Source of the DNA: Candidatus Staskawiczbacteria bacterium
GTDB lineage: Bacteria > Patescibacteriota > Minisyncoccia > Minisyncoccales > Staskawiczbacteraceae
Direction of reading: 5' to 3'
DNA length: 63,458 bases
Assembly: GCA_026395215.1 (NCBI GenBank)
Contig: JAPLZC010000012.1
Coordinates: 1-63,458 of the forward strand
In this document: piece by piece, positions 3,001 to 60,658 of the stretch
Position numbering within the stretch: the stretch's first letter is position 1
How the letters are laid out: each line of letters begins with the position of its first letter
Notes under the pieces: generated by a model
Seen by the model: only the letters and a program-made list of their open reading frames with translations
Told to the model about the DNA's origin: nothing
The model's database searches: none
Translations under genes and position numbers: made by a program

Positions 3001-6000
3001 TTCTTCGTGTCCAATTATCCAACCCTTATTACTATCTAAAGGTGCTGGAAGTGAAGTTTCACCATACGTTGGACTTTGTGCAACACCATTGTAATATACA
3101 TGAGCCATTCCTGAATAATAAGCTACAGTCATGTGCGTCCAAGTATTTATAGAAGGAGGACTAAAATATACATAACCAAATGATCCACCATTACCCCTAT
3201 TTGTAGCAATCACAAGATAAGTGGGACCCATATATGCTTCTATATCGTCTACATTTCCAGATCCTCTTGTAAAAAGAGAATTATAATCTGACAAAAGGGT
3301 AGGATATACCCAAGTTGCCAAAGTAAAATTATTCGTGAAATCAAGAGCTTCATTTTGAGGTATTGAAACATAATCACTGGTGCCGTTGAAAGTTAGGGCA
3401 CTGGCGATTTTAGAGGTAGTTATAAGATTTGTATTTTGTTGGGCTGTGCCGGTATTTGAACCAATGCTATCTGTAACCGTAGCTGAAGAAGCGCTGTCAT
3501 CATTCATTGTGTAATGAGCCACCAGCCCACTCCCCAAATCCGTCGGAGTCAAATATCGAACAATCACAACTCCAGAACCACCATCTCCACCAGTAGATGA
3601 TGAACCATGATTTCCGCCACCCCCACCACCACCGCCAAGTCCATCTGTTCCATTTGTTCCATTTACTGAAGAATCATTTCCTCCATTTCCTCCGCCACCA
3701 TTTCCACCATTTCCAACCGAACCACTTCTACAACCTCCGCCACCACCACCTGCATAATAAACATCAGAACCACTTATAGTATAATTTAATCCTGCTCCAC
3801 CATTTCCTGCCTGACCTGCCGCACCATTCGCACCAATAGCTCCCGATCCACCACCGCCTCCCGCAAAATAATCTGAAGAGTATACTCCTGCTCCTCCCCC
3901 ATAACCCTGTGCACTTGTTCCACTTCCGCCCGCTCTTTCATATCCACCATTACCGCCTCCACCAGAACCACCATCTCCACCAGCAACATCACCCGAAGAC
4001 CCTCCTCCTCCACCAACAGCCACCAAACTTCCAAAAGAAGAATTTTCTCCATTATTTATTGTTGTACTATAGGTTGAGTTAGTTAACCCTGTTCCACCTG
4101 CTCCAACAACAACATCTGTTGCTCCACTTACAGCATAAGAACTATTGTAAATTAATCCACCCGCTCCTCCACCACCTGCTCCAGCACCTGCTGCTCCACC
4201 CCCTCCACCTCCAGCGACAACCAAAACCTTAACGGAAGTGACGCCGGTTGGCGGGGTGAATGATGTGGTTCCAACTGCTGTGTATGTACAAACAGTATAT
4301 AGAGGATCGTCTGGCGCGGTTGCACAAACCGGGTCTACAATGTAGTCAATTTCAATATTGCCGGAGAATAATAAGTCATAGACGGCGGAGTTAGTGTAAT
4401 TTGGATAAATCTTGTAAGTGTTTTCGCCGTTGATGGCGAATTCACCAATGATATCGTTACCATTTTCGTTAAAGACGGTAATGGTTCCTGTACCTTTGGC
4501 ATAGATGGTCATATCATTTCCGGCGGTTAGGTTGTGTTCAAAGGTTGCTCTTATATAGTGAGTGTCGGGGATGGTCACCCAAACATTGTCTTGGGTAACT
4601 GTTTGCTCATAAACATCATTAACAATTTCTTTGTTGGCATCTAACTCAAATGCTTTTGAAATAAAAATAATTTCAAAGGTTTGTTCAGACAAGTGTGGGA
4701 CTGTCCATTCTACGTAGTCCAGTTTGCCGTTACCGTTGGTGTCGTATGCGTGGAAGGCAACTTCTTTATTGTCTTCATTAGTCCACTTAATTTTGATTTT
4801 GTTTTCTTGGCCAACTTTGAATATTTCTGGGATTTTTGTAGAAGCCAAAACATCAACAATTGGAGCGTTTTCGTTTGAGGCGGTAATGCGGGCTGTGCCT
4901 TCGCCAACAGGAGTAACCAAACCTGTATTGTCTACTACGGCAACTGCGGTGTTGTTTGACGCCCAGTTGACTACTGTCTCCATTGGCTGATTGTTTTGGT
5001 CTAAAGTGTTAGCAACTAATTGCTGAGTGCTTCCGCCAGCAGTTAAATTGGCTGTTAACGGAGTAATATTTATTTTTGTGAGAACCGGTGAAATTATTGC
5101 CGAAGAAATATCAGCCGCTAAAAAATGGGTAAAAGAAGCAATAGCGCGCACAAAACCGGAGATAAGCGAAGCCGCCGCATCAATTGGAGATACTTCTTCA
5201 ACTGGCGCGGGAATTTCTATAGTTGGAGTTTCCTCCACCGGAACAGGTGTCTCTGCCGGAGTCTCTACTGGTGCTGGCGCGACTTCCGGTGCCGGCGTTT
5301 CTTCAGGTGTAGGTGTAACTTCTGGCGCCTCGGGTGTAACATCAGTCGGTGGGATGTCCGACGTCCCACCACTCTCTACCGGTGCCGATGTTTCAGCCGG
5401 TGCTGGCACAACCTCCCGCCCTTCGGGGGCGAGGCTCGCCCCTTCGGGGGCGGCTGGTGCTGTATATATAGAAGGAGAAACTGTAATAATTGCCGGGGCT
5501 GTGCTGGTGACTGCAGGTCCCGAGCCGGGTACTTCATCGGGAGCTGAAACAGTAACAATTTTTCCGGTGTCTGTTTCTTGCTCGGTAATAACTGGAGCAG
5601 GTGTTTCATAGGTAACTTGCACATATGTCTCTTCGACAACCGGAGTCTCTTCGACAACCGGAGTCTCTTCGACAACCGGAGTCTCTTCGACAACCGGAGT
5701 CTCTTCGACAACCGGAGTCTCTTCGACGACCTGTTCAATCAAACCTGCCTGCGCAGTCAGGTCTACAACGGTTTCATCGGGGGTTGACGCTACTATGTTT
5801 TCTACAGCGTCTCCAAGATCGGCAAGCAAAGAACCAAAACCGTCGCTAACGCTGGCAAGAAATGAATTATTCTTTTGTTTTGATGGGACAACTGCTTCGG
5901 CTAATTGCTGTCTTTGGTTAAAAGATAATTGTTCTGTTTTTTTTGTTTGCAAAACTTCCTTCGCCTGTTCTGCGGAAATTTTTATAATTTTAATGTTGCT

Positions 6001-17390: not shown

Positions 17391-18671
17391 ATGGATAGAT
17401 TTAAGTTACTACCTAAATCAAAGCTCAACGAACTCCCCAAAACAAGCGGCGTTTATTGCTTTGCAGTCGGTGGGATGTCCGACATCCCACCGATTTATAT
17501 CGGCAAGGCCGTGAATATACAAAGCAGGGTTAAAAATCATTTCCAACAGCCTTCTTACCGAGATAATATATTTATAGACAAAGTTGAGAAAATTGGATAT
17601 TTTGAAACTGGCTCAGAAATTGAGGCTTTGCTTTTGGAAGCCAGCTTAATTAAAAAGCACCAACCAAGGTTTAATGTAGTCTGGAAGGACGATAAGAATT
17701 ATTTTTACGTGGCTATCGAGCAAGATAAAAACAAGATTCCGTATGTCTTTATTACACATAAGCCAAAAAAAATCCACCCGGTCATCCGACCGGGTGCCCC
17801 GTCGAATGACGGGGCAAAATCCCAGTATATCGGACCTTTTGTAGAAGGGACAGCTTTAAAAATGACCCTAAAGTTTTTAAGACGCGTATTCCCCTACTAC
17901 ACTTCTGCGAGGCATCCAAAGAGCAACTGCACCTGGTGCCATTTAGGACTTTGTCCCGGACCAAATCACGATTTGAAGGCGTACAAAAAAAATATAAAAA
18001 AACTAGTTTTAATTCTTCAAGGGAAAAGCAAAACTGTTTTAAATTCCCTGAAACGGGAGATGGCTACTTTTTCTGAACAAAACAAGTTTGAGGAGGCCGG
18101 CAAAGTACGCGATGAAATCGCCAGCTTACAACAAGTCATGTCCCACTCCAGCGTCATTACCCAAGCAAAGTCCGGTGGGGTGTCGGACATCCCACCACTC
18201 TCTGGCAGGGTTGAGTGTTATGATGTGTCTAACATACAGGGCAAACAAGCCACCGGTTCTATGATTGCTTTTACAGATGGAAAACCAGATAAGAGCCAAT
18301 ATAGAAAGTTTAAAATAAAAATGGAAAACACGCCCAATGACATAGCTATGTTAAAAGAAATTATAACCAGACGACTTAACCACGTTAAGTGGCCTTATCC
18401 GGAAGTTATGTTGATAGACGGTGGAAAAGCTCAGTTGAATGCGGCAATAGAAATTAAAAATTATTTTAAAAATTTAAAAATTAGAAATTTAAAAATTATC
18501 TCCATTGCCAAGGGCAGACAAGAATTATTTATTGAGGGGTGCAAGGAACCAATACCACTAAAAAATCTTCCACAAGAAACTTATAACCTGATAAAAAATT
18601 TAGATGACGAAGCTCACAGATTTGCCATAACTTACCATAAAAAATTGAGAAGAAAGGAATTGTTGCAATAG
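17391..18671 (+). CDS. uvrC: excinuclease ABC subunit UvrC, short form (no C-terminal HhH2)
   Basis: GIY-YIG (GVYCF...YIGKA.N...R), UVR motif (KFEEAGKVRDEIASLQ), RNase H-like endonuclease domain (YDVSNIQG...YRKFKIK...IDGGKAQL). Ends right after EAHRFAITYHKKLR. Confidence 0.93.
   Translation: MDRFKLLPKSKLNELPKTSGVYCFAVGGMSDIPPIYIGKAVNIQSRVKNHFQQPSYRDNIFIDKVEKIGYFETGSEIEALLLEASLIKKHQPRFNVVWKDDKNYFYVAIEQDKNKIPYVFITHKPKKIHPVIRPGAPSNDGAKSQYIGPFVEGTALKMTLKFLRRVFPYYTSARHPKSNCTWCHLGLCPGPNHDLKAYKKNIKKLVLILQGKSKTVLNSLKREMATFSEQNKFEEAGKVRDEIASLQQVMSHSSVITQAKSGGVSDIPPLSGRVECYDVSNIQGKQATGSMIAFTDGKPDKSQYRKFKIKMENTPNDIAMLKEIITRRLNHVKWPYPEVMLIDGGKAQLNAAIEIKNYFKNLKIRNLKIISIAKGRQELFIEGCKEPIPLKNLPQETYNLIKNLDDEAHRFAITYHKKLRRKELLQ
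17469..17491. repeat. 23-nt perfect palindrome, 'SDIPP' family, in frame in GIY-YIG domain
   Basis: GGTGGGATGTC-C-GACATCCCACC encodes GGMSDIPP. Confidence 0.9.
17777..17815. repeat. tandem pair of GC-rich stem-loops, 'PVIRPGA' family, in frame
   Basis: CCCGGTC-ATCC-GACCGGG followed by GCCCCGTC-GAAT-GACGGGGC encodes HPVIRPGAPSNDGA. Confidence 0.9.
18174..18196. repeat. 23-nt palindrome, 'SDIPP' family, in frame
   Basis: GGTGGGGTGTC-G-GACATCCCACC encodes GGVSDIPP. Flanks are shared with the copy at 5348. Confidence 0.9.
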
Positions 18672-34136: not shown

Positions 34137-34710
34137 ACATCCGGAAGTGTACCTTAAGTCTATCTTGGTTGTCTATAAAATCTAGCAATCCAAACCGAAC
34201 ATATTTTTCAAGCTTAAACAATTTTATAAAGTCATCAATTTCTTTTTTACAATCATAAGGGTGTAGGAAAATGCTTTCCTGTAATTCATAAAATCCGCCC
34301 ATTTTAAGCCTATAATTTAAAGCATTCCTACCCTTTCTGCACTCATTTGGTATGTCAAAAGCCACCATCCGCCATTTACCGTCCCATTTTTCTTTCTTGT
34401 TAGCCAACCTCCTAAACCTATAATTAATCGCCCGCAACCTCCCCTTCTCAGTCAATGAAACCAAAACAGAGCCTTCATAGCCCTTCTTTTTCCCTGCCTG
34501 CGCAGGCAGGTCAATTAATTTATACCTTTTAAGATCAACAACAGCCCTCCGTAATTGCTTGCCGGTAAAATTATGTATATCTTTTATAATGTCATTTATA
34601 ATAAAAAACCTCGCGTCACCATGCCCACCAATATGGGCGTGATCGGTCTGGTAATATATACTCCACAATATTTCATCCAAAATCTTATTCATACATTTAT
34701 TATACACCAT
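34135..34710 (-). CDS. wHTH + PaaX-middle/Cas2-fold domain protein (PaaX-like), paralog of 49986..50558
   Basis: WDGKWRMVAFDIPNECRKGRNALNYRLKMGGFYELQESIFLHPYD matches the PaaX/Cas2-like ferredoxin-fold pattern, with an N-terminal winged-helix-like segment. M7 may be the true start. Confidence 0.65.
   Translation of the reverse strand: MVYNKCMNKILDEILWSIYYQTDHAHIGGHGDARFFIINDIIKDIHNFTGKQLRRAVVDLKRYKLIDLPAQAGKKKGYEGSVLVSLTEKGRLRAINYRFRRLANKKEKWDGKWRMVAFDIPNECRKGRNALNYRLKMGGFYELQESIFLHPYDCKKEIDDFIKLFKLEKYVRFGLLDFIDNQDRLKVHFRM
34493..34510. repeat. 18-nt perfect GC-rich palindrome in frame
   Basis: CCTGCCTGC|GCAGGCAGG encodes LPAQAG. Confidence 0.75.
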
Positions 34711-34721
34711 TTTCTATTTAT

Positions 34722-34751
34722 AGTACGTTTTTTCGGCTCGAGCCAAAAAAC
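34722..34751. repeat. right inverted repeat of PaaX-like cassette 1
   Basis: AGTACGTTTTTTCGGCTCGAGCCAAAAAAC is nearly the reverse complement of 34101-34136. It lies 12 nt upstream of ATG 34710. Confidence 0.8.
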
Positions 34752-34771
34752 AACACATTCATTTTTTGCAC

Positions 34772-48423: not shown

Positions 48424-49131
48424 TTATTGAACGTCTATAAGCCCGGATTTATTAATTAAAACTTTTCTGCTTGAGCCATCTGTATTCTTCAAAAAAACTT
48501 TAACTGCAGAAAGTGCCGTGTCACCCGAAGCTGTTATTGTTGTGGTAGGGTTTGGCGGATTAAAATTAACGCTAACATCGTCATATGAATGACTACCGTC
48601 ACTGCCGTCGGCATTAACGTCAATAATTTTTTCTAAGGATAAACTTGCGTTCTCTGCATTAACAGAAATTGTTTCCACAACACAATCTTTTGGGACCGGA
48701 ATAGTTATCCTTATACCGCAATTAGAGCTAGCTTGATAATAACTTGATTGACTACAAAGCACTCCACTGTTGTATCTTTTATCGCTAGTACCGTCCACAC
48801 CTGCTATGTCAGCATATATTAAATACGTTGTAGGCTGGGTGGTATCAACATAAACGCCATATCCCTTGACCGGTACTGGACAATTGTCGGCACCTAGCGT
48901 TTGGACTCCAGAAGTTCCCATGTCTTCGGCCTTTCTGAAATCTTGCGCCATACTATATGTTGCTCTTAAAAGTGCTGACTGCCTTTGAATTTTGGGAAAA
49001 TCAGCAATCATAATCCCGGAAAAAACAGCAATCATAAAAATTACAACAATAAGTTCAATTAAAGTTATGCCCTTCTGAAATTTTAAATTTTGAATATATT
49101 TAAATACCATTGAATTATTTGATTTCCCCAA
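48424..49131 (-). CDS. type IV minor pilin (FimT/GspH-like)
   Basis: QKGITLIELIVVIFMIAVFSG. The 5' end overlaps the pilD 3' end (the true start may be M8 at 49110). Confidence 0.7.
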   Translation of the reverse strand: MGKSNNSMVFKYIQNLKFQKGITLIELIVVIFMIAVFSGIMIADFPKIQRQSALLRATYSMAQDFRKAEDMGTSGVQTLGADNCPVPVKGYGVYVDTTQPTTYLIYADIAGVDGTSDKRYNSGVLCSQSSYYQASSNCGIRITIPVPKDCVVETISVNAENASLSLEKIIDVNADGSDGSHSYDDVSVNFNPPNPTTTITASGDTALSAVKVFLKNTDGSSRKVLINKSGLIDVQ

Positions 49132-49886
49132 AACATTGCCAAAAATGTTCCCATAATTAAAAATGGGCCAAAGGGTATTTCGCTTTTTAATCCTTTTTTC
49201 TGGAAGGCCATTAGTATTAATCCTATTATAGCACCAAAAAAGAATGCCAAAAATAGAGCCACAAAAATATTCGGCATACCCAGCAAAAACCCCATTAAAA
49301 TAGCCAACTTTACGTCCCCAAACCCCATAGCCTTTCCCCGCGATAACAAAAATATAGCTAAAAAGAACCCCGAAGCAATTACCGCCGCAATCAAGAATCC
49401 CGGTATGTCCCTAAAATTTTCGACTAACCTAAAAACAAAAGTAATTATAATTGCGGGAAATAAAACCTTGTCTGGTATAATATAGTGCTTTAAATCGTAC
49501 ACAAAAATTATAATCAAAGAGCTGGCGACATAAAACAGGAAAACGAGGTTTAAACCCCATACCCACCCGGTCATACGACCGGGCGCCCCCGCCAAAATGG
49601 GGGCGAAATTGTAAATTAGCAAAAAAATTAGGCCTGTCGCGAGTTCAACCACAGGATACTGTGCGCTAATTTTTTTGTGGCAGTACCTACATTTACCGCC
49701 CAAAAACACCCAGCTAAAAACCGGAAATAAATCCAACCAACTTAAGTTATGTTTGCAGTGTGGGCAAAAACTCCTTCCCTTCAAACTCTTCTCCTCTTCC
49801 AACCGATAAATAAAACAATTCAAAAAACTCCCAATACAAATCCCCAACACAAACACAAAAACCCCAATTAAATAATTAAAAATCAT
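49083..49886 (-). CDS. pilD: prepilin peptidase PilD (A24 family)
   Basis: Zn-binding CPHCKH...CRYCHKKI, polytopic, GFGDVKL and a second catalytic Asp region. Confidence 0.92.
   Translation of the reverse strand: MIFNYLIGVFVFVLGICIGSFLNCFIYRLEEEKSLKGRSFCPHCKHNLSWLDLFPVFSWVFLGGKCRYCHKKISAQYPVVELATGLIFLLIYNFAPILAGAPGRMTGWVWGLNLVFLFYVASSLIIIFVYDLKHYIIPDKVLFPAIIITFVFRLVENFRDIPGFLIAAVIASGFFLAIFLLSRGKAMGFGDVKLAILMGFLLGMPNIFVALFLAFFFGAIIGLILMAFQKKGLKSEIPFGPFLIMGTFLAMFWGNQIIQWYLNIFKI
49566..49605. repeat. tandem GC-rich stem-loops, 'PVIRPGA' family read in the opposite sense, in frame in pilD
   Basis: CCCGGTC-ATAC-GACCGGG then CGCCCCC-GCCAAAAT-GGGGGCG encodes APILAGAPGRMTGW. Confidence 0.85.
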
Positions 49887-49944
49887 TATCTTATTTTATC
49901 ATCTTTTAACATAATAAAAAACAACCTTTCAACCAAATAATAAA

Positions 49945-49982
49945 ATAGTCGCGTTTTTTGCTGGAGGCAAAAACATGACTAT
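49945..49982. repeat. 38-nt long-stem palindrome, left inverted repeat of PaaX-like cassette 2
   Basis: ATAGTCGCGTTTTTTGC-TGGAG-GCAAAAACATGACTAT. Confidence 0.85.
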
Positions 49983-49985
49983 TTA

Positions 49986-50558
49986 TCAATCAAGCTTAAA
50001 ATGCTTTTTAAGATAATCCCCATTATCTATAAACTCCAATAATGCGAAACGGACATACTTTTCCAGCTTAAACAAACTCACAAAATCCTTTATCTCCTTT
50101 TCACAGTCATAGGGGTATATAAATAAACTCTCTTGTAGCTCGTAAAACCCGGCCATACGCGCCCTATACCTTAAGGCGTTCCTTCCTTTTTTGCATTCGT
50201 CGGGTATGTCAAAAGCTACCATTCGCCACCTCCCGTCCCAAACTCCCTTCTTGTTATTCAGTCTCTTAAATCTGATATTAAGCGCCCTTAATTTACCCTT
50301 GTCGGTTAAAGAAATTATAATAGAACCATCATAGTTCTTTTTCTTTTCAATAAATTTATGCTTTTTCAATTCTGTTATACCATCTTTAAAATCTTTCCTG
50401 CCCGCTCTCGCCAAAGCTCTAATGCTTTTGCCCGATATACCAAATATTTTTTCAGCTCTATAAGAAAATCCAAACTCTACGCAATCAGCCAGATGCAGTA
50501 ATATTTTTTCCGACAATCTCTGTTCTCCCGCTTTGGGAAAGTGTTTTCCTGAATCCAT
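49986..50558 (-). CDS. wHTH + PaaX-middle/Cas2-fold domain protein (PaaX-like), embedded in the pilus cluster
   Basis: WDGRWRMVAFDIPDECKKGRNALRYRARMAGFYELQESLFIYPYD. The C-terminal half is close to 34135..34710. Confidence 0.65.
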   Translation of the reverse strand: MDSGKHFPKAGEQRLSEKILLHLADCVEFGFSYRAEKIFGISGKSIRALARAGRKDFKDGITELKKHKFIEKKKNYDGSIIISLTDKGKLRALNIRFKRLNNKKGVWDGRWRMVAFDIPDECKKGRNALRYRARMAGFYELQESLFIYPYDCEKEIKDFVSLFKLEKYVRFALLEFIDNGDYLKKHFKLD

Positions 50559-50594
50559 ACTTTTTAATTAAATTTATAAATTAATACACCCTTA

Positions 50595-50603
50595 ATTATA
50601 CCA
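50595..50603 (-). promoter_or_regulatory. extended -10 (TGGTATAAT) of PaaX-like gene 2
   Basis: Minus-strand TGGTATAAT ~37 nt upstream of ATG 50558, directly downstream of the 50621-50658 palindrome. Confidence 0.4.
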
Positions 50604-50620
50604 CCGCACTACAAATTAAA

Positions 50621-50658
50621 ATAGTCGCGTTTTTGCCTCCAGCAAAAAATGCGACTAT
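50621..50658. repeat. right inverted repeat of PaaX-like cassette 2
   Basis: ATAGTCGCGTTTTTGC-CTCCA-GCAAAAAATGCGACTAT is the reverse complement of 49945-49982 with 3 mismatches (the loop is inverted). Confidence 0.85.
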
Positions 50659-50689
50659 TAATTAATTACTTCTTTACTTACTGTTCTCT

Positions 50690-50721
50690 ACCCGCTTCCG
50701 ACCACCCGCTTCCGACCACCC
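50690..50721. repeat. 14-nt tandem direct repeat x2 (+4 nt)
   Basis: acccgcttccgacc acccgcttccgacc accc, intergenic. Confidence 0.8.
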
Positions 50722-50765
50722 TTTTCCAACCACTCTCCTCTAAACACTCTTCCAACCAACGCCAC

Positions 50766-50798
50766 AAAAAAACAGAGCCCGTCCCCGAGCCCTGTTTT
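50766..50798 (-). terminator. rho-independent terminator after pilin 50830..51264
   Basis: Minus RNA CAGGGCUCG-GGGA-CGGGCUCUG (2 G:U pairs) followed by U7. Confidence 0.65.
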
Positions 50799-50829
50799 AA
50801 TTTTAACTCACCGAAAATAGTGCTATCAA

Positions 50830-51264
50830 TTACTGGCAAGTAGTAGTTGTAGCATCAGTTGTAGCAGTACATTTACCTGAAGCTAATGTTCCTACATATC
50901 CTGTACTATCTGAACACCAAGTAGTAGCACCAGATGGCATTGTAGATTTGACGCAGTAGGTAGTACCAACAGCACCGGTGGCAGCATTAATATATGTAGT
51001 AACCGTAGGAGCTGGGTTTATAGCACCAATTTTAGATACTATCGCCGCATATGTAGCATCAGAGGTAACTCCGGTATAAGTAAATCCCGACAAATAAAAA
51101 GCCATTGCTGCTGACTGCAATTGGTGAACATATTCAATTACTCCCGCATCTTTAGCCTTGTTTAGATAACTAGTTACATTAACTAATACGATTGAGGCCA
51201 AGATTGCGATGATGGCGATAACTACGATCAACTCGATAATTGTAAAACCTTTTGATTTTTGCAT
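50830..51264 (-). CDS. type IV pilin (prepilin N-terminal methylation motif)
   Basis: MQKSKGFTIIELIVVIAIIAILASIVLVNV. C-terminal Cys pair. Confidence 0.85.
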   Translation of the reverse strand: MQKSKGFTIIELIVVIAIIAILASIVLVNVTSYLNKAKDAGVIEYVHQLQSAAMAFYLSGFTYTGVTSDATYAAIVSKIGAINPAPTVTTYINAATGAVGTTYCVKSTMPSGATTWCSDSTGYVGTLASGKCTATTDATTTTCQ

Positions 51265-51325
51265 TTTATTTTAAAAAATTAATTATAGTCTTTCGACCTT
51301 TGTTTAATTCATTATTTATAATACC

Positions 51326-51359
51326 AAAAAAAACAGAGTCAAGCAAATGACCCTGTTTT
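51326..51359 (-). terminator. rho-independent terminator after pilin 51395..51790
   Basis: Minus RNA CAGGGUCA-UUUGCU-UGACUCUG followed by U8. It overlaps a possible TTGACT -35 for the next pilin. Confidence 0.65.
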
Positions 51360-51394
51360 AATTTTAACTCTACGAGAACGATTCCAAAAAACTA

Positions 51395-51790
51395 TTATGG
51401 TGTTGCACAAACTGATGTTGCTGTTGTACAAACCTTACTTTCAGACGTTACTCCAGTAGAATCGACACAGATTGTACCGCCACCTGGTAAAGTTGAAGAA
51501 GCACAGTAAGCGGTAGTAGGGGTTGCGGTGGTAACAAGGGTACCTCCTTGCTTTGTTATGTCGCCGGATAATGTTGCATCTATAGTACAAGATGCGTAAC
51601 TTAAGTTCTCTGCATAACATGTACCCATACCCAATGCGATACTTGATATATCCGATTTTACAGCTGCAGCTTTGGCTTTGTTTATGTATGTTGTTACGTT
51701 AACCAATACGATTGAGGCCAAGATGGCGATGATGGCGATAACTACGATTAACTCAATGATTGTAAAACCTTTTGATTTTTTAATTTGCAT
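51395..51790 (-). CDS. type IV pilin
   Basis: KSKGFTIIELIVVIAIIAILASIVLVNV. The 5' ~80 nt are nearly identical to those of 50830..51264. Confidence 0.85.
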   Translation of the reverse strand: MQIKKSKGFTIIELIVVIAIIAILASIVLVNVTTYINKAKAAAVKSDISSIALGMGTCYAENLSYASCTIDATLSGDITKQGGTLVTTATPTTAYCASSTLPGGGTICVDSTGVTSESKVCTTATSVCATP

Positions 51791-51939
51791 TTAAATTTTT
51801 GAACGAAGTGAGGAAAATTTATCCCGAGTCTTCAAGACGAGGGAATGCCTTGCTCCGTTTATTTTTAATTAATTTTATTTTATTTTTTTTGGATTTTTTT
51901 GAATTCGACCTTTGTTTATGTATCTACTTTATTTTTAAA

Positions 51940-59914: not shown

Positions 59915-60658
59915 GTGGATAAGTCAAAAGACTTTTTATTAGATTTATTGTTCCCAAAGTTCTGTTTAGGATGTAAAAAAGAAGGCACATATTTATGCGA
60001 TGATTGCCGGGGGCTTTTGGATATTTCAGAATTTGGTTATTGCCTATGCGAAGCAAATGGACAGCCCAAGCGCCTTTTGGAAGGCCACGTGGGGAAATGT
60101 AGTATTTGCTCTAGAAAAGAATTGGCGGGACTTTATTTTGCGCTTTCCTACAAGGAGAAGACACTGACAAGAAATTTAATTTATCAATTTAAATACAAAC
60201 CGTATTTAAAAGACCTGGCAAAAACTTTAGCCAGCATAATTGTAGAACATCTTGTGATTTCAGGAAAAAACACAAATGACATTTGGGAAAACAGTGTTTT
60301 GGTTCCCGTACCTTTGGATAGTAAAAAAATAAAAGACCGCGGGTACAATCAATCTGAAGAATTGGCAAAAGAATTGTCTGTAGTTCTAAATGTTCCAGTT
60401 GTTTTAAATGTTCTTGTAAAAATAAAACAAACCGATTCTCAAAAAGGCCTGTCAAAAACCGAAAGAGAGAAAAATCTCCAAGGCGCCTTCGCCATCAAAA
60501 GTTGTTCGACGTCGGACGTCGAACAACTTTCCGGGAAAAAAGTCTTTCTAGTTGATGACGTCTACACCACCGGTTCCACAATGACTGAGTGTGCCAAAAC
60601 CCTTAAAACCGGCGGCGCCAAACAAGTTTGGGGAATTTGCCTGGCCCGCGAAGGGTAA
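59915..60658 (+). CDS. comF: ComF family protein (ComFC-type phosphoribosyltransferase-like)
   Basis: N-terminal Cys4 (CLGC...CDDC) and C-terminal VFLVDDVYTTGST PRTase loop. GTG start. Confidence 0.85.
   Translation: MDKSKDFLLDLLFPKFCLGCKKEGTYLCDDCRGLLDISEFGYCLCEANGQPKRLLEGHVGKCSICSRKELAGLYFALSYKEKTLTRNLIYQFKYKPYLKDLAKTLASIIVEHLVISGKNTNDIWENSVLVPVPLDSKKIKDRGYNQSEELAKELSVVLNVPVVLNVLVKIKQTDSQKGLSKTEREKNLQGAFAIKSCSTSDVEQLSGKKVFLVDDVYTTGSTMTECAKTLKTGGAKQVWGICLAREG
60498..60530. repeat. 33-nt perfect palindrome (16-bp arms) in frame in comF
   Basis: AAAGTTGTTCGACGTC-G-GACGTCGAACAACTTT = 11 codons (KSCSTSDVEQL), immediately before the PRTase loop. Confidence 0.9.

What the first reader, a model, noticed from the sequence alone, without database searches (positions are those of the whole stretch)
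49945..50658. Second PaaX/Cas2-fold cassette with its own co-varying inverted repeats, embedded between pilin genes and pilD
A 38-nt palindrome ATAGTCGCGTTTTTTGC-TGGAG-GCAAAAACATGACTAT lies at 49945-49982. Its reverse complement, with 3 mismatches and the loop inverted to CTCCA, lies at 50621-50658. Together they bracket the 190-aa paralog (714-bp unit). The architecture is the same as cassette 1 ((A)TAGT.C..-T5/6-GC core-A5/6) but the sequence differs. The repeats therefore co-vary with the protein paralog, as expected for specific protein-DNA (or RNA) recognition. An extended -10 (TGGTATAAT) sits between the upstream palindrome and the ATG, so the palindrome is at an operator-like position. 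Its location inside the type IV pilus block may mean it regulates pilin/pilD expression, or that the block is a preferred landing site.
Basis: partly seen in the sequence, partly recalled or inferred. Interest (0 to 1): 0.7.

Follow-up and report, generated by a model that had tools for sequence, protein, structure and literature searches.

The report
Small regulator gene bracketed by palindromes
A 190-residue DNA-binding protein gene between the pilin genes and pilD of an uncultured Parcubacteria genome is flanked on both sides by its own private 38-base palindrome; the same layout holds for most of its many relatives and most likely marks a self-regulating genetic switch, although a mobile-element past is not excluded.

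Summary
Two 38-nt palindromes (49945-49982 and 50621-50658), reverse complements of each other with 3 mismatches, bracket a minus-strand 190-aa ORF (49986-50558). The ORF has a winged-helix N-terminus and a PaaX_M/Cas2-like domain. The layout is a family rule. In 63 of 76 homologous loci (down to 30% identity, many Parcubacteria lineages) the gene is flanked by a locus-specific pair of ~30-50-nt palindromes. The figure is 8/304 for mismatched loci and 3/142 for neighbouring genes. The upstream copy sits just upstream of a -10 element in 35/39 loci (background 25%), which is an operator position. The downstream copy follows the stop codon, has no U-tail and has no fixed relation to a promoter. 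Dyad symmetry runs through the centre, and the ~38-bp span matches the E. coli PaaX site TGATTC-N27-GAATCA. The most likely reading is a minimal PaaX-type dimeric DNA binder that represses its own promoter and gates transcription into the next gene, here pilD. Three results keep a REP/RAYT-like or nuclease reading alive. Relatives carry solitary copies of cassette-1-type palindromes after unrelated housekeeping genes. Empty and filled sites both exist. Polar residues in the Cas2-like domain are invariant. No publication on this was found. Mechanism confidence is about 0.5.

The parts
50621..50658 (.). Upstream (promoter-proximal) 38-nt palindrome of cassette 2. It is the putative operator and would cover roughly -31 to -69 of the cassette promoter.
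   Evidence: The RNA/DNA hairpin potential has z = -5.7.
50595..50603 (-). Extended -10 promoter element TGGTATAAT of the mini-PaaX gene.
   Evidence: Read directly. One search gives TATAAT with TG, 19 nt after the palindrome.
49986..50558 (-). Mini-PaaX gene (190 aa): N-terminal winged helix plus a PaaX_M/Cas2-like domain, with no PaaX_C effector domain.
49945..49982 (.). Downstream 38-nt palindrome. It starts 3 nt after the TGA-TAA stop and ends 58 nt before the pilD ATG. It is the putative second binding site (roadblock or loop partner), and it is also a 3' hairpin in the mRNA.
49893..49901 (-). Candidate extended -10 (TGATAAAAT) for pilD, 6 nt before the ATG, which would give a leaderless-type start. 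Inferred only.
   Evidence: Read. It is not called by the consensus scan.
49083..49886 (-). pilD (prepilin peptidase), the gene immediately downstream and the likely gated target.
   Evidence: PF06750, PF01478.
50769..50798 (-). Classical intrinsic terminator of the upstream pilin gene (A-tract, GC stem, T-tract). It shows that the upstream palindrome is not needed as that gene's terminator.
34721..34757 (.). Upstream palindrome of cassette 1 (the paralog); its distal arm is degenerate.
34135..34710 (-). Cassette 1 mini-PaaX paralog. The real start is probably the ATG at 34692, because the -10 TGTATAAT overlaps the ATG at 34710.
34100..34137 (.). Downstream palindrome of cassette 1, lying between the paralog's stop and ftsK.

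Best explanation
The 190-aa protein is a minimal PaaX-type DNA-binding protein. It has a winged-helix domain plus a Cas2-like dimerisation domain and lacks the C-terminal effector domain of true PaaX. As a symmetric dimer it recognises its own ~38-bp palindrome. The variable outer arms are probably read by the winged helices, and the T-tract/GC-core/A-tract is shared within subfamilies.

The upstream copy overlaps the -35 region of the gene's extended -10 promoter, so binding there represses the gene's own transcription. The downstream copy, directly after the stop codon, is a second site for the same protein. By roadblock and/or looping with the upstream site it limits transcription running on into the next gene, here pilD and the minor-pilin genes. 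The module therefore acts as a self-limiting promoter unit in front of a housekeeping gene.

Shown: the paired, locus-specific palindromes; the promoter linkage of the upstream copy; the fold; and the operator geometry known for PaaX.

Inferred: binding itself, repression rather than activation, and what the downstream copy does.
For: (1) Pfam PaaX_M at E=2e-18. The AF2 model shows a wHTH plus a ferredoxin-like domain, and the best PDB match is E. coli PaaX 8a39, followed by 3l09 and many wHTH repressors.

(2) The known E. coli PaaX site is TGATTC-N27-GAATCA, 39 bp in all, which is the same span as these palindromes (PMC9493321).

(3) Matched upstream/downstream (U/D) palindromes occur in 63/76 loci, against 8/304 for mismatched loci and 3/142 for neighbouring genes.

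(4) The upstream (U) copy is followed by a -10 element in 35/39 loci (background 25%), at a stereotyped spacing of 13-24 or 1-9 nt. Fourteen of these have TG.

(5) Symmetry runs through the dyad: positions +-1 are complementary in 30/39 and +-2 in 37/39. An RNA hairpin loop would not need this.

(6) There is no U-tail enrichment after the downstream (D) copies, and the upstream genes have their own classical terminators.

(7) Identical 40-mers, arms included, recur at unlinked sites in different metagenomes. A solitary copy on the same 88-kb contig as a cassette shares that cassette's arms.

(8) In the rnhB subgroup the D copy lies in the X-rnhB intercistronic region just before the RBS.

(9) Position and orientation are stable: pilin-X-pilD in 5 genomes and at least 24 contigs.

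(10) There is a weak trend of arms with the N-terminal domain and of the core with the C-terminal domain.
Against: No binding or expression data exist. The metatranscriptomes cover only the major pilin.

The downstream copy is present even when the next gene is convergent (16/74). D and solitary copies show no fixed relation to promoters, so their role is guessed.

Differences between U and D are as often compensated on both arms as single (37 against 33). Independent half-site recognition by a dimer does not predict this.

Seven polar residues of the Cas2-like domain are invariant in 77-79 of 79 members, and the Cas2-type Asp is absent from E. coli PaaX. That hints at catalysis or ligand binding rather than simple dimerisation.

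Solitary palindromes lie after unrelated genes, and empty and filled sites both exist.

No effector domain is present, so it is unclear what the switch would respond to.
Confidence: 0.5

Rival explanations
1. A REP/RAYT-like system built on a different fold. The palindromes are small, hairpin-forming DNA elements that spread, or once spread, to the 3' ends of genes. The bracketed gene encodes their dedicated binding and cutting protein, a wHTH plus an active Cas2-fold nuclease. That protein is now largely immobile or domesticated, and it autoregulates because one element overlaps its promoter, as in many insertion sequences.
For: The gene is flanked by two copies of a palindrome whose type co-varies with the protein clade.

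Solitary copies with the same 20-nt core lie 11-26 nt after the stops of groEL, recG, ATP synthase, RNase J and rpoC.

A palindrome is present after rpoC in L081 but absent in L017, although their RpoC proteins are 95% identical.

Empty and filled pairs exist with one palindrome against two: L084 against L022/L092, and L102 against L003.

In-frame palindrome insertions sit at one loop of rnhB in L035, L044 and L046.

The arms evolve by compensated changes.

D108, D117, R126, Q142, S144, C152 and E155 are invariant, and there is sub-threshold similarity to Cas2.

Different protein clades occupy the same rpoC-ftsK gap.
Against: Copy number is low. Each palindrome of this window occurs exactly twice in metagenomes that hold the genome at 18-20x, and there are about 15-20 solitary family-like palindromes in 581 kb of relatives.

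No identical gene copies were found in different contexts. There are no joints at the palindromes in four DNA runs. No relatives were found on viral contigs or phages.

Genes are intact in nearly all loci of streamlined genomes. The fold is not HUH/Y1. L021 keeps its palindromes with an Asp-to-Asn change.
Confidence: 0.2
2. The palindromes act as RNA hairpins: 3'-end stabilisers or weak bidirectional terminators, and intercistronic structures. The two copies resemble each other because of local duplication or gene conversion. The protein is either unrelated to them or binds the RNA.
For: The hairpins are strong, with z from -5.7 to -6.5. The D copy starts 0-30 nt after the stop. Solitary copies lie at gene 3' ends. 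The outer arms often end in ..ACTATTT. Stem mismatches on the sense strand of D favour G.T over A.C by 11:2, against 6:4 in U. Arm changes are compensated.
Against: Complementarity continues through the centre, where a loop must form. There is no U-tract enrichment. The T-tract precedes the GC stem and the A-tract follows it, which is the reverse of the classical terminators in the same window. The upstream copy lies upstream of the -10, so the gene's own promoter does not transcribe it. The orientation of the asymmetric centres is arbitrary. This reading gives no reason for the 20-nt core to be identical across unrelated sites.
Confidence: 0.12
3. An excisable or invertible cassette. The palindromes are lox/FRT-like recombination sites (inverted arms around a short spacer) and the protein is a novel recombinase. 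A variant of this idea is insertion with duplication of the whole repeat, as happens at a CRISPR leader.
For: The site architecture is 16-nt arms around a 2-6-nt centre. Single palindromes are found at empty sites. In several loci the imperfect palindromes are exact direct repeats, namely L032, L044, L069 and L078. The centre is inverted between the copies in this cassette.
Against: No recombinase or Cas1 homology was found. No excision or inversion joints were seen. Orientation relative to the neighbours is constant in all orthologs. U and D that differ are each internally symmetric, which is not the hybrid pattern a central crossover would leave.
Confidence: 0.05
4. The palindromes are ordinary intrinsic terminators or chance palindromes with no link to the gene.
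For: They are intergenic hairpins in an AT-rich genome.
Against: Shuffles give 0 expected matches. The terminator scan does not call them. Family-wide pairing is 63/76 against 3/142 for neighbouring genes.
Confidence: 0.02

Closest known systems
E. coli PaaX repressor and its operators (paa and pac promoters)
   Same: Both have a winged-helix N-terminus and a central Cas2-like domain (PF20803), and the best structural hit is 8a39. The recognition site is a long palindrome with widely spaced half-sites, about 38-39 bp overall. The protein represses its own promoter by occupying it.
   Different: The protein here has 190 aa instead of 316 and lacks the PaaX_C phenylacetyl-CoA-binding domain. It scores 28 bits against the 264.55-bit cut-off of the PaaX equivalog model. 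No paa gene lies next to the cassette (its neighbours are pilus genes), and the rest of the window was not screened for paa genes. The whole palindrome is symmetric, not only two hexamers. A second copy always follows the stop codon. The Cas2-type Asp and other polar residues are invariant here but absent in E. coli PaaX.
REP elements and their RAYT (TnpA-REP) genes
   Same: A single-copy gene is flanked by two copies of a palindromic element whose sequence class co-varies with the protein clade. Further solitary copies lie at the 3' ends of unrelated genes.
   Different: The protein is wHTH plus Cas2-like, not an HUH/Y1 nuclease. There are a few copies per genome rather than tens to hundreds. 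The upstream copy has a fixed spacing to the promoter.
Auxiliary-operator looping systems (lac O1/O2/O3, gal OE/OI, lambda OL/OR flanking cI)
   Same: Two or more copies of one operator lie hundreds of bp apart. One is at the promoter and another is downstream or inside a coding region (compare the rnhB-internal copy).
   Different: Here the pair encloses the regulator's own gene as a family-wide rule. Oligomerisation beyond a dimer is unknown.
Cas2 / VapD nucleases
   Same: Both share the ferredoxin-like fold and the beta1 '..FDIP' and 'QxSxF' motifs. Similarity to Cas2 models is weak (15-18 bits).
   Different: The score is below the Cas2 cut-off of 24.5 bits. The domain is fused to a wHTH. 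No CRISPR-like array was seen within about 500 bp of the cassette; cas1 and the rest of the window were not screened.

Membership tests
PaaX family (TIGR02277; Pfam PF07848 + PF20803 + PF08223) | Central Cas2-like domain PaaX_M (PF20803) | tested here: met
   E=2.4e-18, 66.4 bits against a cut-off of 24.
PaaX family (TIGR02277; Pfam PF07848 + PF20803 + PF08223) | N-terminal PaaX-type winged helix | tested here: inconclusive
   There is no Pfam PF07848 hit. The AF2 model has a wHTH, and the whole chain matches PaaX 8a39 best, at E=9.6e-4 and TM 0.35. hhalign against E. coli PaaX covers residues 57-153 with 44% probability.
PaaX family (TIGR02277; Pfam PF07848 + PF20803 + PF08223) | C-terminal effector (phenylacetyl-CoA) domain PaaX_C, and full-length equivalog score | tested here: not met
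   The protein ends about 15 residues after the Cas2-like domain. There is no PF08223 hit. NCBIfam gives 28 bits against a cut-off of 264.55.
PaaX family (TIGR02277; Pfam PF07848 + PF20803 + PF08223) | Binds a palindrome with half-sites about 27 bp apart at its own and target promoters | not testable with these tools
   The geometry is compatible: a 38-bp palindrome 19 nt upstream of the -10. Binding was not measured.
CRISPR Cas2 | Reaches the Cas2 model threshold | tested here: not met
   TIGR01573 gives 15.5-18.4 bits against a cut-off of 24.5. PADLOC Cas2 gives E=4e-3 to 4e-4.
CRISPR Cas2 | Linked to cas1 and a CRISPR array | not tested
   The window was not screened for cas1. No array-like repeats were seen in 49500-51000.
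REP/RAYT | Gene flanked by palindromic repeats of its own class | tested here: met
REP/RAYT | HUH/Y1 transposase-like protein | tested here: not met
   Pfam, NCBIfam and fold searches give only PaaX/wHTH/Cas2-like matches.
REP/RAYT | Many dispersed copies of the same repeat in the genome | tested here: not met
   Each palindrome of this window occurs at only its two places in the X1/X2 contig sets. There are none elsewhere in the window. Relatives do have some solitary copies.
Intrinsic (Rho-independent) terminator | GC-rich stem directly followed by a U-tract | tested here: not met
   The terminator scan does not call them. Mean T in the 8 nt after D is 3.5, against 3.4 after U. The T-tract lies 5' of the GC stem.
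Insertion sequence / transposon | Several near-identical copies in different contexts, and a recognisable transposase | tested here: not met
   Paralogs are at most about 60-85% identical. P0002 is always in one context. There is no transposase domain.

The most novel reading that the evidence does not exclude
The wHTH-Cas2-like proteins are active, sequence- and structure-specific nucleases or strand-transferases for their palindromes. That would make this a REP/RAYT-like, or even CRISPR-repeat-duplication-like, system built on the Cas2 fold. The palindromes would be small mobile hairpin elements that seed gene 3' ends and coding loops in Patescibacteria, and each protein gene would sit between two copies of the element it handles.
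Probability: 0.15. Interest if true: 0.85.

Novelty: new variant of a known kind. Interest (0 to 1): 0.62.

Why it matters
Patescibacteria have very small genomes and few recognisable regulators. This family has 4243 clusters at 50% identity, several paralogs per genome, and each paralog has a private 38-bp site. It may therefore be one of their main ways of wiring gene expression, placed in front of core genes such as pilD, ftsK, rnhB, tpiA and alaS.

The family offers a natural set of orthogonal protein/operator pairs with readable specificity, which is useful for studying how DNA recognition diverges and for synthetic circuits.

If the Cas2-like domain proves to be catalytic, the system would link the Cas2 fold to palindromic repeat elements outside CRISPR. 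That bears on the origin of CRISPR adaptation modules.

For this locus it gives a testable idea of how pilin and prepilin-peptidase expression are uncoupled in an organism whose lifestyle depends on type IV pili.

Tried and rejected
(1) RNA evidence. Three metatranscriptomes from the same lake hold only the major pilin (51395-51909). Nothing real maps to either cassette, so transcript ends could not be read.

(2) Excision or inversion variants. Contigs of four DNA runs laid on 48800-51600 show no joints at the palindromes. Two joints, 49888>51187 and 49861>51173, fall in the highly repeated pilin N-terminal segment, and I treated them as graph artefacts or other organisms.

(3) Generic terminator. 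Rejected; see the membership test.

(4) 'The downstream copy is the operator of the next gene's promoter.' Not supported as a general rule. The copy is present with convergent neighbours, the spacing to -10-like hexamers is scattered, and the next gene is co-directional no more often than the preceding one (78% against 73%).

(5) 'Palindromes occur only at the cassette.' This holds for this genome. It is false for relatives of cassette-1 type, so I withdrew my earlier inference.

(6) Rfam search of the ~540-nt segment between the second and third palindromes in L021 found nothing. The segment holds an 83-aa lipoprotein ORF.

(7) Phage or viral carriage: none found.

(8) Literature: no paper links PaaX-like proteins to Patescibacteria or to Cas2 in the searchable library.

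(9) Arm/protein covariation gave only weak, phylogenetically uncontrolled correlations.

Full report
**What is in the window.** They are reverse complements of each other with three mismatches and an inverted centre (TGGAG/CTCCA). No match was seen in 100 dinucleotide-preserving shuffles. They bracket a minus-strand ORF, 49986-50558, of 190 aa. Its only significant Pfam domain is PaaX_M, the Cas2-like central domain of PaaX (E=2.4e-18).

In gene orientation the order of features is as follows:
- pilin gene stop (50830)
- a classical A-tract/GC-stem/T-tract terminator (50798-50769)
- four 14-nt tandem units (50757-50690)
- the upstream palindrome, called U below (50658-50621)
- TGGTATAAT (50603-50595)
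- ATG (50558)
- TGA-TAA stop
- the downstream palindrome, called D below (49982-49945)
- 58 nt of spacer
- the pilD ATG (49886)

A paralog 58% identical lies at 34135-34710 between rpoC and ftsK. It has its own palindromes, 34721-34757 and 34100-34137, and these are direct rather than inverted repeats.

**The protein.** The AlphaFold model (pLDDT 71) shows a winged helix (residues ~15-84), a linker helix and a ferredoxin-like domain. The best PDB match is E. coli PaaX 8a39, then 3l09 and many wHTH repressors. The protein is not a true PaaX. It has no C-terminal effector domain and scores 28 bits against the 264.55-bit cut-off of the equivalog model. Similarity to real Cas2 is below threshold.

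Across 79 family members, W107, D108, W111, D117 (78/79), P119, R126, Q142, S144, P149, C152 and E155 are essentially invariant. E. coli PaaX has no equivalent of D117. The family is large, with 4243 clusters at 50% identity, almost all 170-210 aa. The named hits are Staskawiczbacteria and other Parcubacteria, with several paralogs per genome. No relatives were found on viral contigs or phages.

**The bracket is a family rule.** I fetched 79 loci from GTDB representative genomes and compared 200 nt upstream with 150 nt downstream of each homolog. The two flanks share a match of score >=16 in 63 of 76 loci. The figure is 8 of 304 for flanks taken from different loci and 3 of 142 for the flanks of neighbouring genes. 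The shared segment is a near-perfect palindrome of 30-50 nt whose sequence is private to the locus. Its layout is outer arms, then an A/T tract, then a GC-rich core with a centre such as CTCGAG, CGATCG, GC(G/T)AT(C/A)GC, CACGTG or CTGGAG.

**Upstream copy.** In 35 of 39 cleanly defined loci a -10 hexamer follows the upstream palindrome within 45 nt. It is mostly a perfect TATAAT, and 14 have TG. The background rate is 25%. Spacings cluster at 13-24 nt in the Staskawiczbacteria-type group and at 1-9 nt in distant members. The palindrome thus occupies the -35/spacer region of an extended -10 promoter, which is a classical operator position. The genes upstream of both window cassettes have their own terminators before the palindrome.

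**Downstream copy.** It starts between -8 and +30 of the stop codon in most loci. It is not followed by a U-tract (mean 3.5 T in the next 8 nt, against 3.4 after U). It shows no stereotyped spacing to a -10. It is present whether the next gene is co-directional (58/74) or convergent (16/74). In the rnhB subgroup it lies 10-30 nt before the RBS/ATG of rnhB, so X and rnhB must be one transcript and the palindrome is intercistronic.

Downstream genes are varied housekeeping genes: rnhB x8, tpiA x5, ftsK, pilD, alaS and others.

**DNA or RNA?** Complementarity continues through the dyad: +-1 in 30/39 and +-2 in 37/39. An RNA loop would not need this, and a two-fold symmetric DNA binder would. The orientation of asymmetric centres is arbitrary between the two copies. 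The ~38-bp span equals that of the E. coli PaaX site TGATTC-N27-GAATCA (PMC9493321). These points favour duplex recognition.

Two observations pull the other way. First, differences between U and D are as often compensated on both arms as single (37 against 33), so each palindrome keeps its own symmetry. Second, in D the sense-strand stem mismatches favour G.T over A.C by 11:2. Template-switch homogenisation of palindromes could explain the first. The second may mean that the 3' hairpin also matters in the mRNA.

**Mobility.** The evidence against current mobility is as follows. The closest relative, P0002 (76% identical), is found on at least 24 contigs, always as PilT-PilC-pilin-pilin-X-PilD. 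Four GTDB genomes share that position. No joints at the palindromes appear in four DNA runs. Each palindrome occurs only twice in metagenomes that hold this genome at 18-20x.

The evidence for a dynamic past is as follows:
- An exact-match scan of metagenomes for the cassette-1-type core TTTTTGGCTCGAGCCAAAAA gave 24 stretches. About 18 of them are solitary palindromes with the full architecture but no adjacent family gene.
- These solitary copies lie 11-26 nt after the stops of groEL, recG, an ATP-synthase subunit, RNase J, rpoC and a ferredoxin.
- L084 has one palindrome between homologs of the two genes that flank a filled cassette in L022/L092. L102 and L003 give a second such pair at the RNase J 3' end. 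L081 carries a palindrome after rpoC that L017, whose RpoC is 95% identical, lacks.
- The rpoC-ftsK gap holds clade-B proteins in some genomes and clade-C proteins in others.
- Three rnhB genes carry an in-frame palindrome at the same loop.

Solitary copies are not next to promoters. One on the same contig as a cassette shares that cassette's arms. Identical 40-mers recur in different samples, so the arms are under sequence constraint.

**Verdict.** The best-supported mechanism is a minimal PaaX-type dimer that binds its private palindrome. It would repress its own extended -10 promoter at the upstream site and use the downstream site, with occasional extra sites, as a roadblock or loop partner that limits transcription into the next gene, here pilD (confidence ~0.5).

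The main rival is a REP/RAYT-like arrangement with a Cas2-fold nuclease (~0.2). It is kept alive by the solitary and in-frame copies, the empty and filled sites and the invariant polar residues. RNA-level roles (~0.12) and recombination sites (~0.05) are less likely. Chance or generic terminators are excluded.

No description of this family or its palindromes was found in the searchable literature. I rate it a new variant of a known kind (PaaX-type regulator/operator) with an unusual, conserved bracket architecture.

Noticed in passing
window 50690-50757: Four 14-nt tandem units lie between the pilin terminator and the upstream palindrome: ACCCGCTTCCGACC twice, then two 79% copies. Their function is unknown, and there are no other copies in the window.
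   Followed up: partly
window 17467-17493, 18172-18198, 5346-5358: A different GC-rich palindrome, TCGGTGGGATGTC-C-GACATCCCACCGA, has a second diverged copy and a half copy. It is a dispersed element unrelated to the cassettes, and at least one copy seems to lie in coding sequence.
   Followed up: partly
window 60498-60530: A 33-nt near-perfect palindrome, AAAGTTGTTCGACGTC-G-GACGTCGAACAACTTT, occurs as a single copy in the window. Its context was not examined.
   Followed up: no
window 34692-34710 and 49887-49901: The -10 elements lie only 6-8 nt before the likely start codons of the cassette-1 gene (TGTATAAT overlaps the upstream in-frame ATG at 34710, the start listed for the ORF) and of pilD (TGATAAAAT). 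This suggests leaderless or near-leaderless mRNAs.
   Followed up: partly
window 51395-51909: Only the 131-aa pilin gene and its 5' region are seen in three lake metatranscriptomes. It is presumably the major pilin.
   Followed up: partly
L035 5038-5073; L044 4879-4914; L046 4894-4933: Three RNase HII genes downstream of family cassettes carry an in-frame palindrome insertion at the same loop, between 'KLAMKKA..' and 'FLLIDG'. In L035 the insertion matches the adjacent cassette's palindrome. In L044 it does not.
   Followed up: partly
L021 4354-4950: A third copy of the cassette palindrome follows an 83-aa lipoprotein ORF that has its own TTGACA/TATCAT promoter, so palindromes bracket that gene too. 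L059 shows a similar three-palindrome layout around a divergent 164-aa ORF.
   Followed up: partly
L093 775-1163: Next to a family cassette there is a tandem array of three different 27-nt hairpins spaced 60 nt apart and repeated with a ~181-nt period (for example TAACACCTCGCGTGTCGCGAGGTGTTA).
   Followed up: no
L028 2739-3421: One family member (LBSQ01000022.1) is split into two frames and is a likely pseudogene. It still has both palindromes intact.
   Followed up: no
L101 3742-4550: An ~800-nt insert between rpoB and rpoC (the gap is 70 nt in the window) contains a solitary cassette-1-type palindrome and a ~150-210-aa ORF that is not a family member.
   Followed up: no
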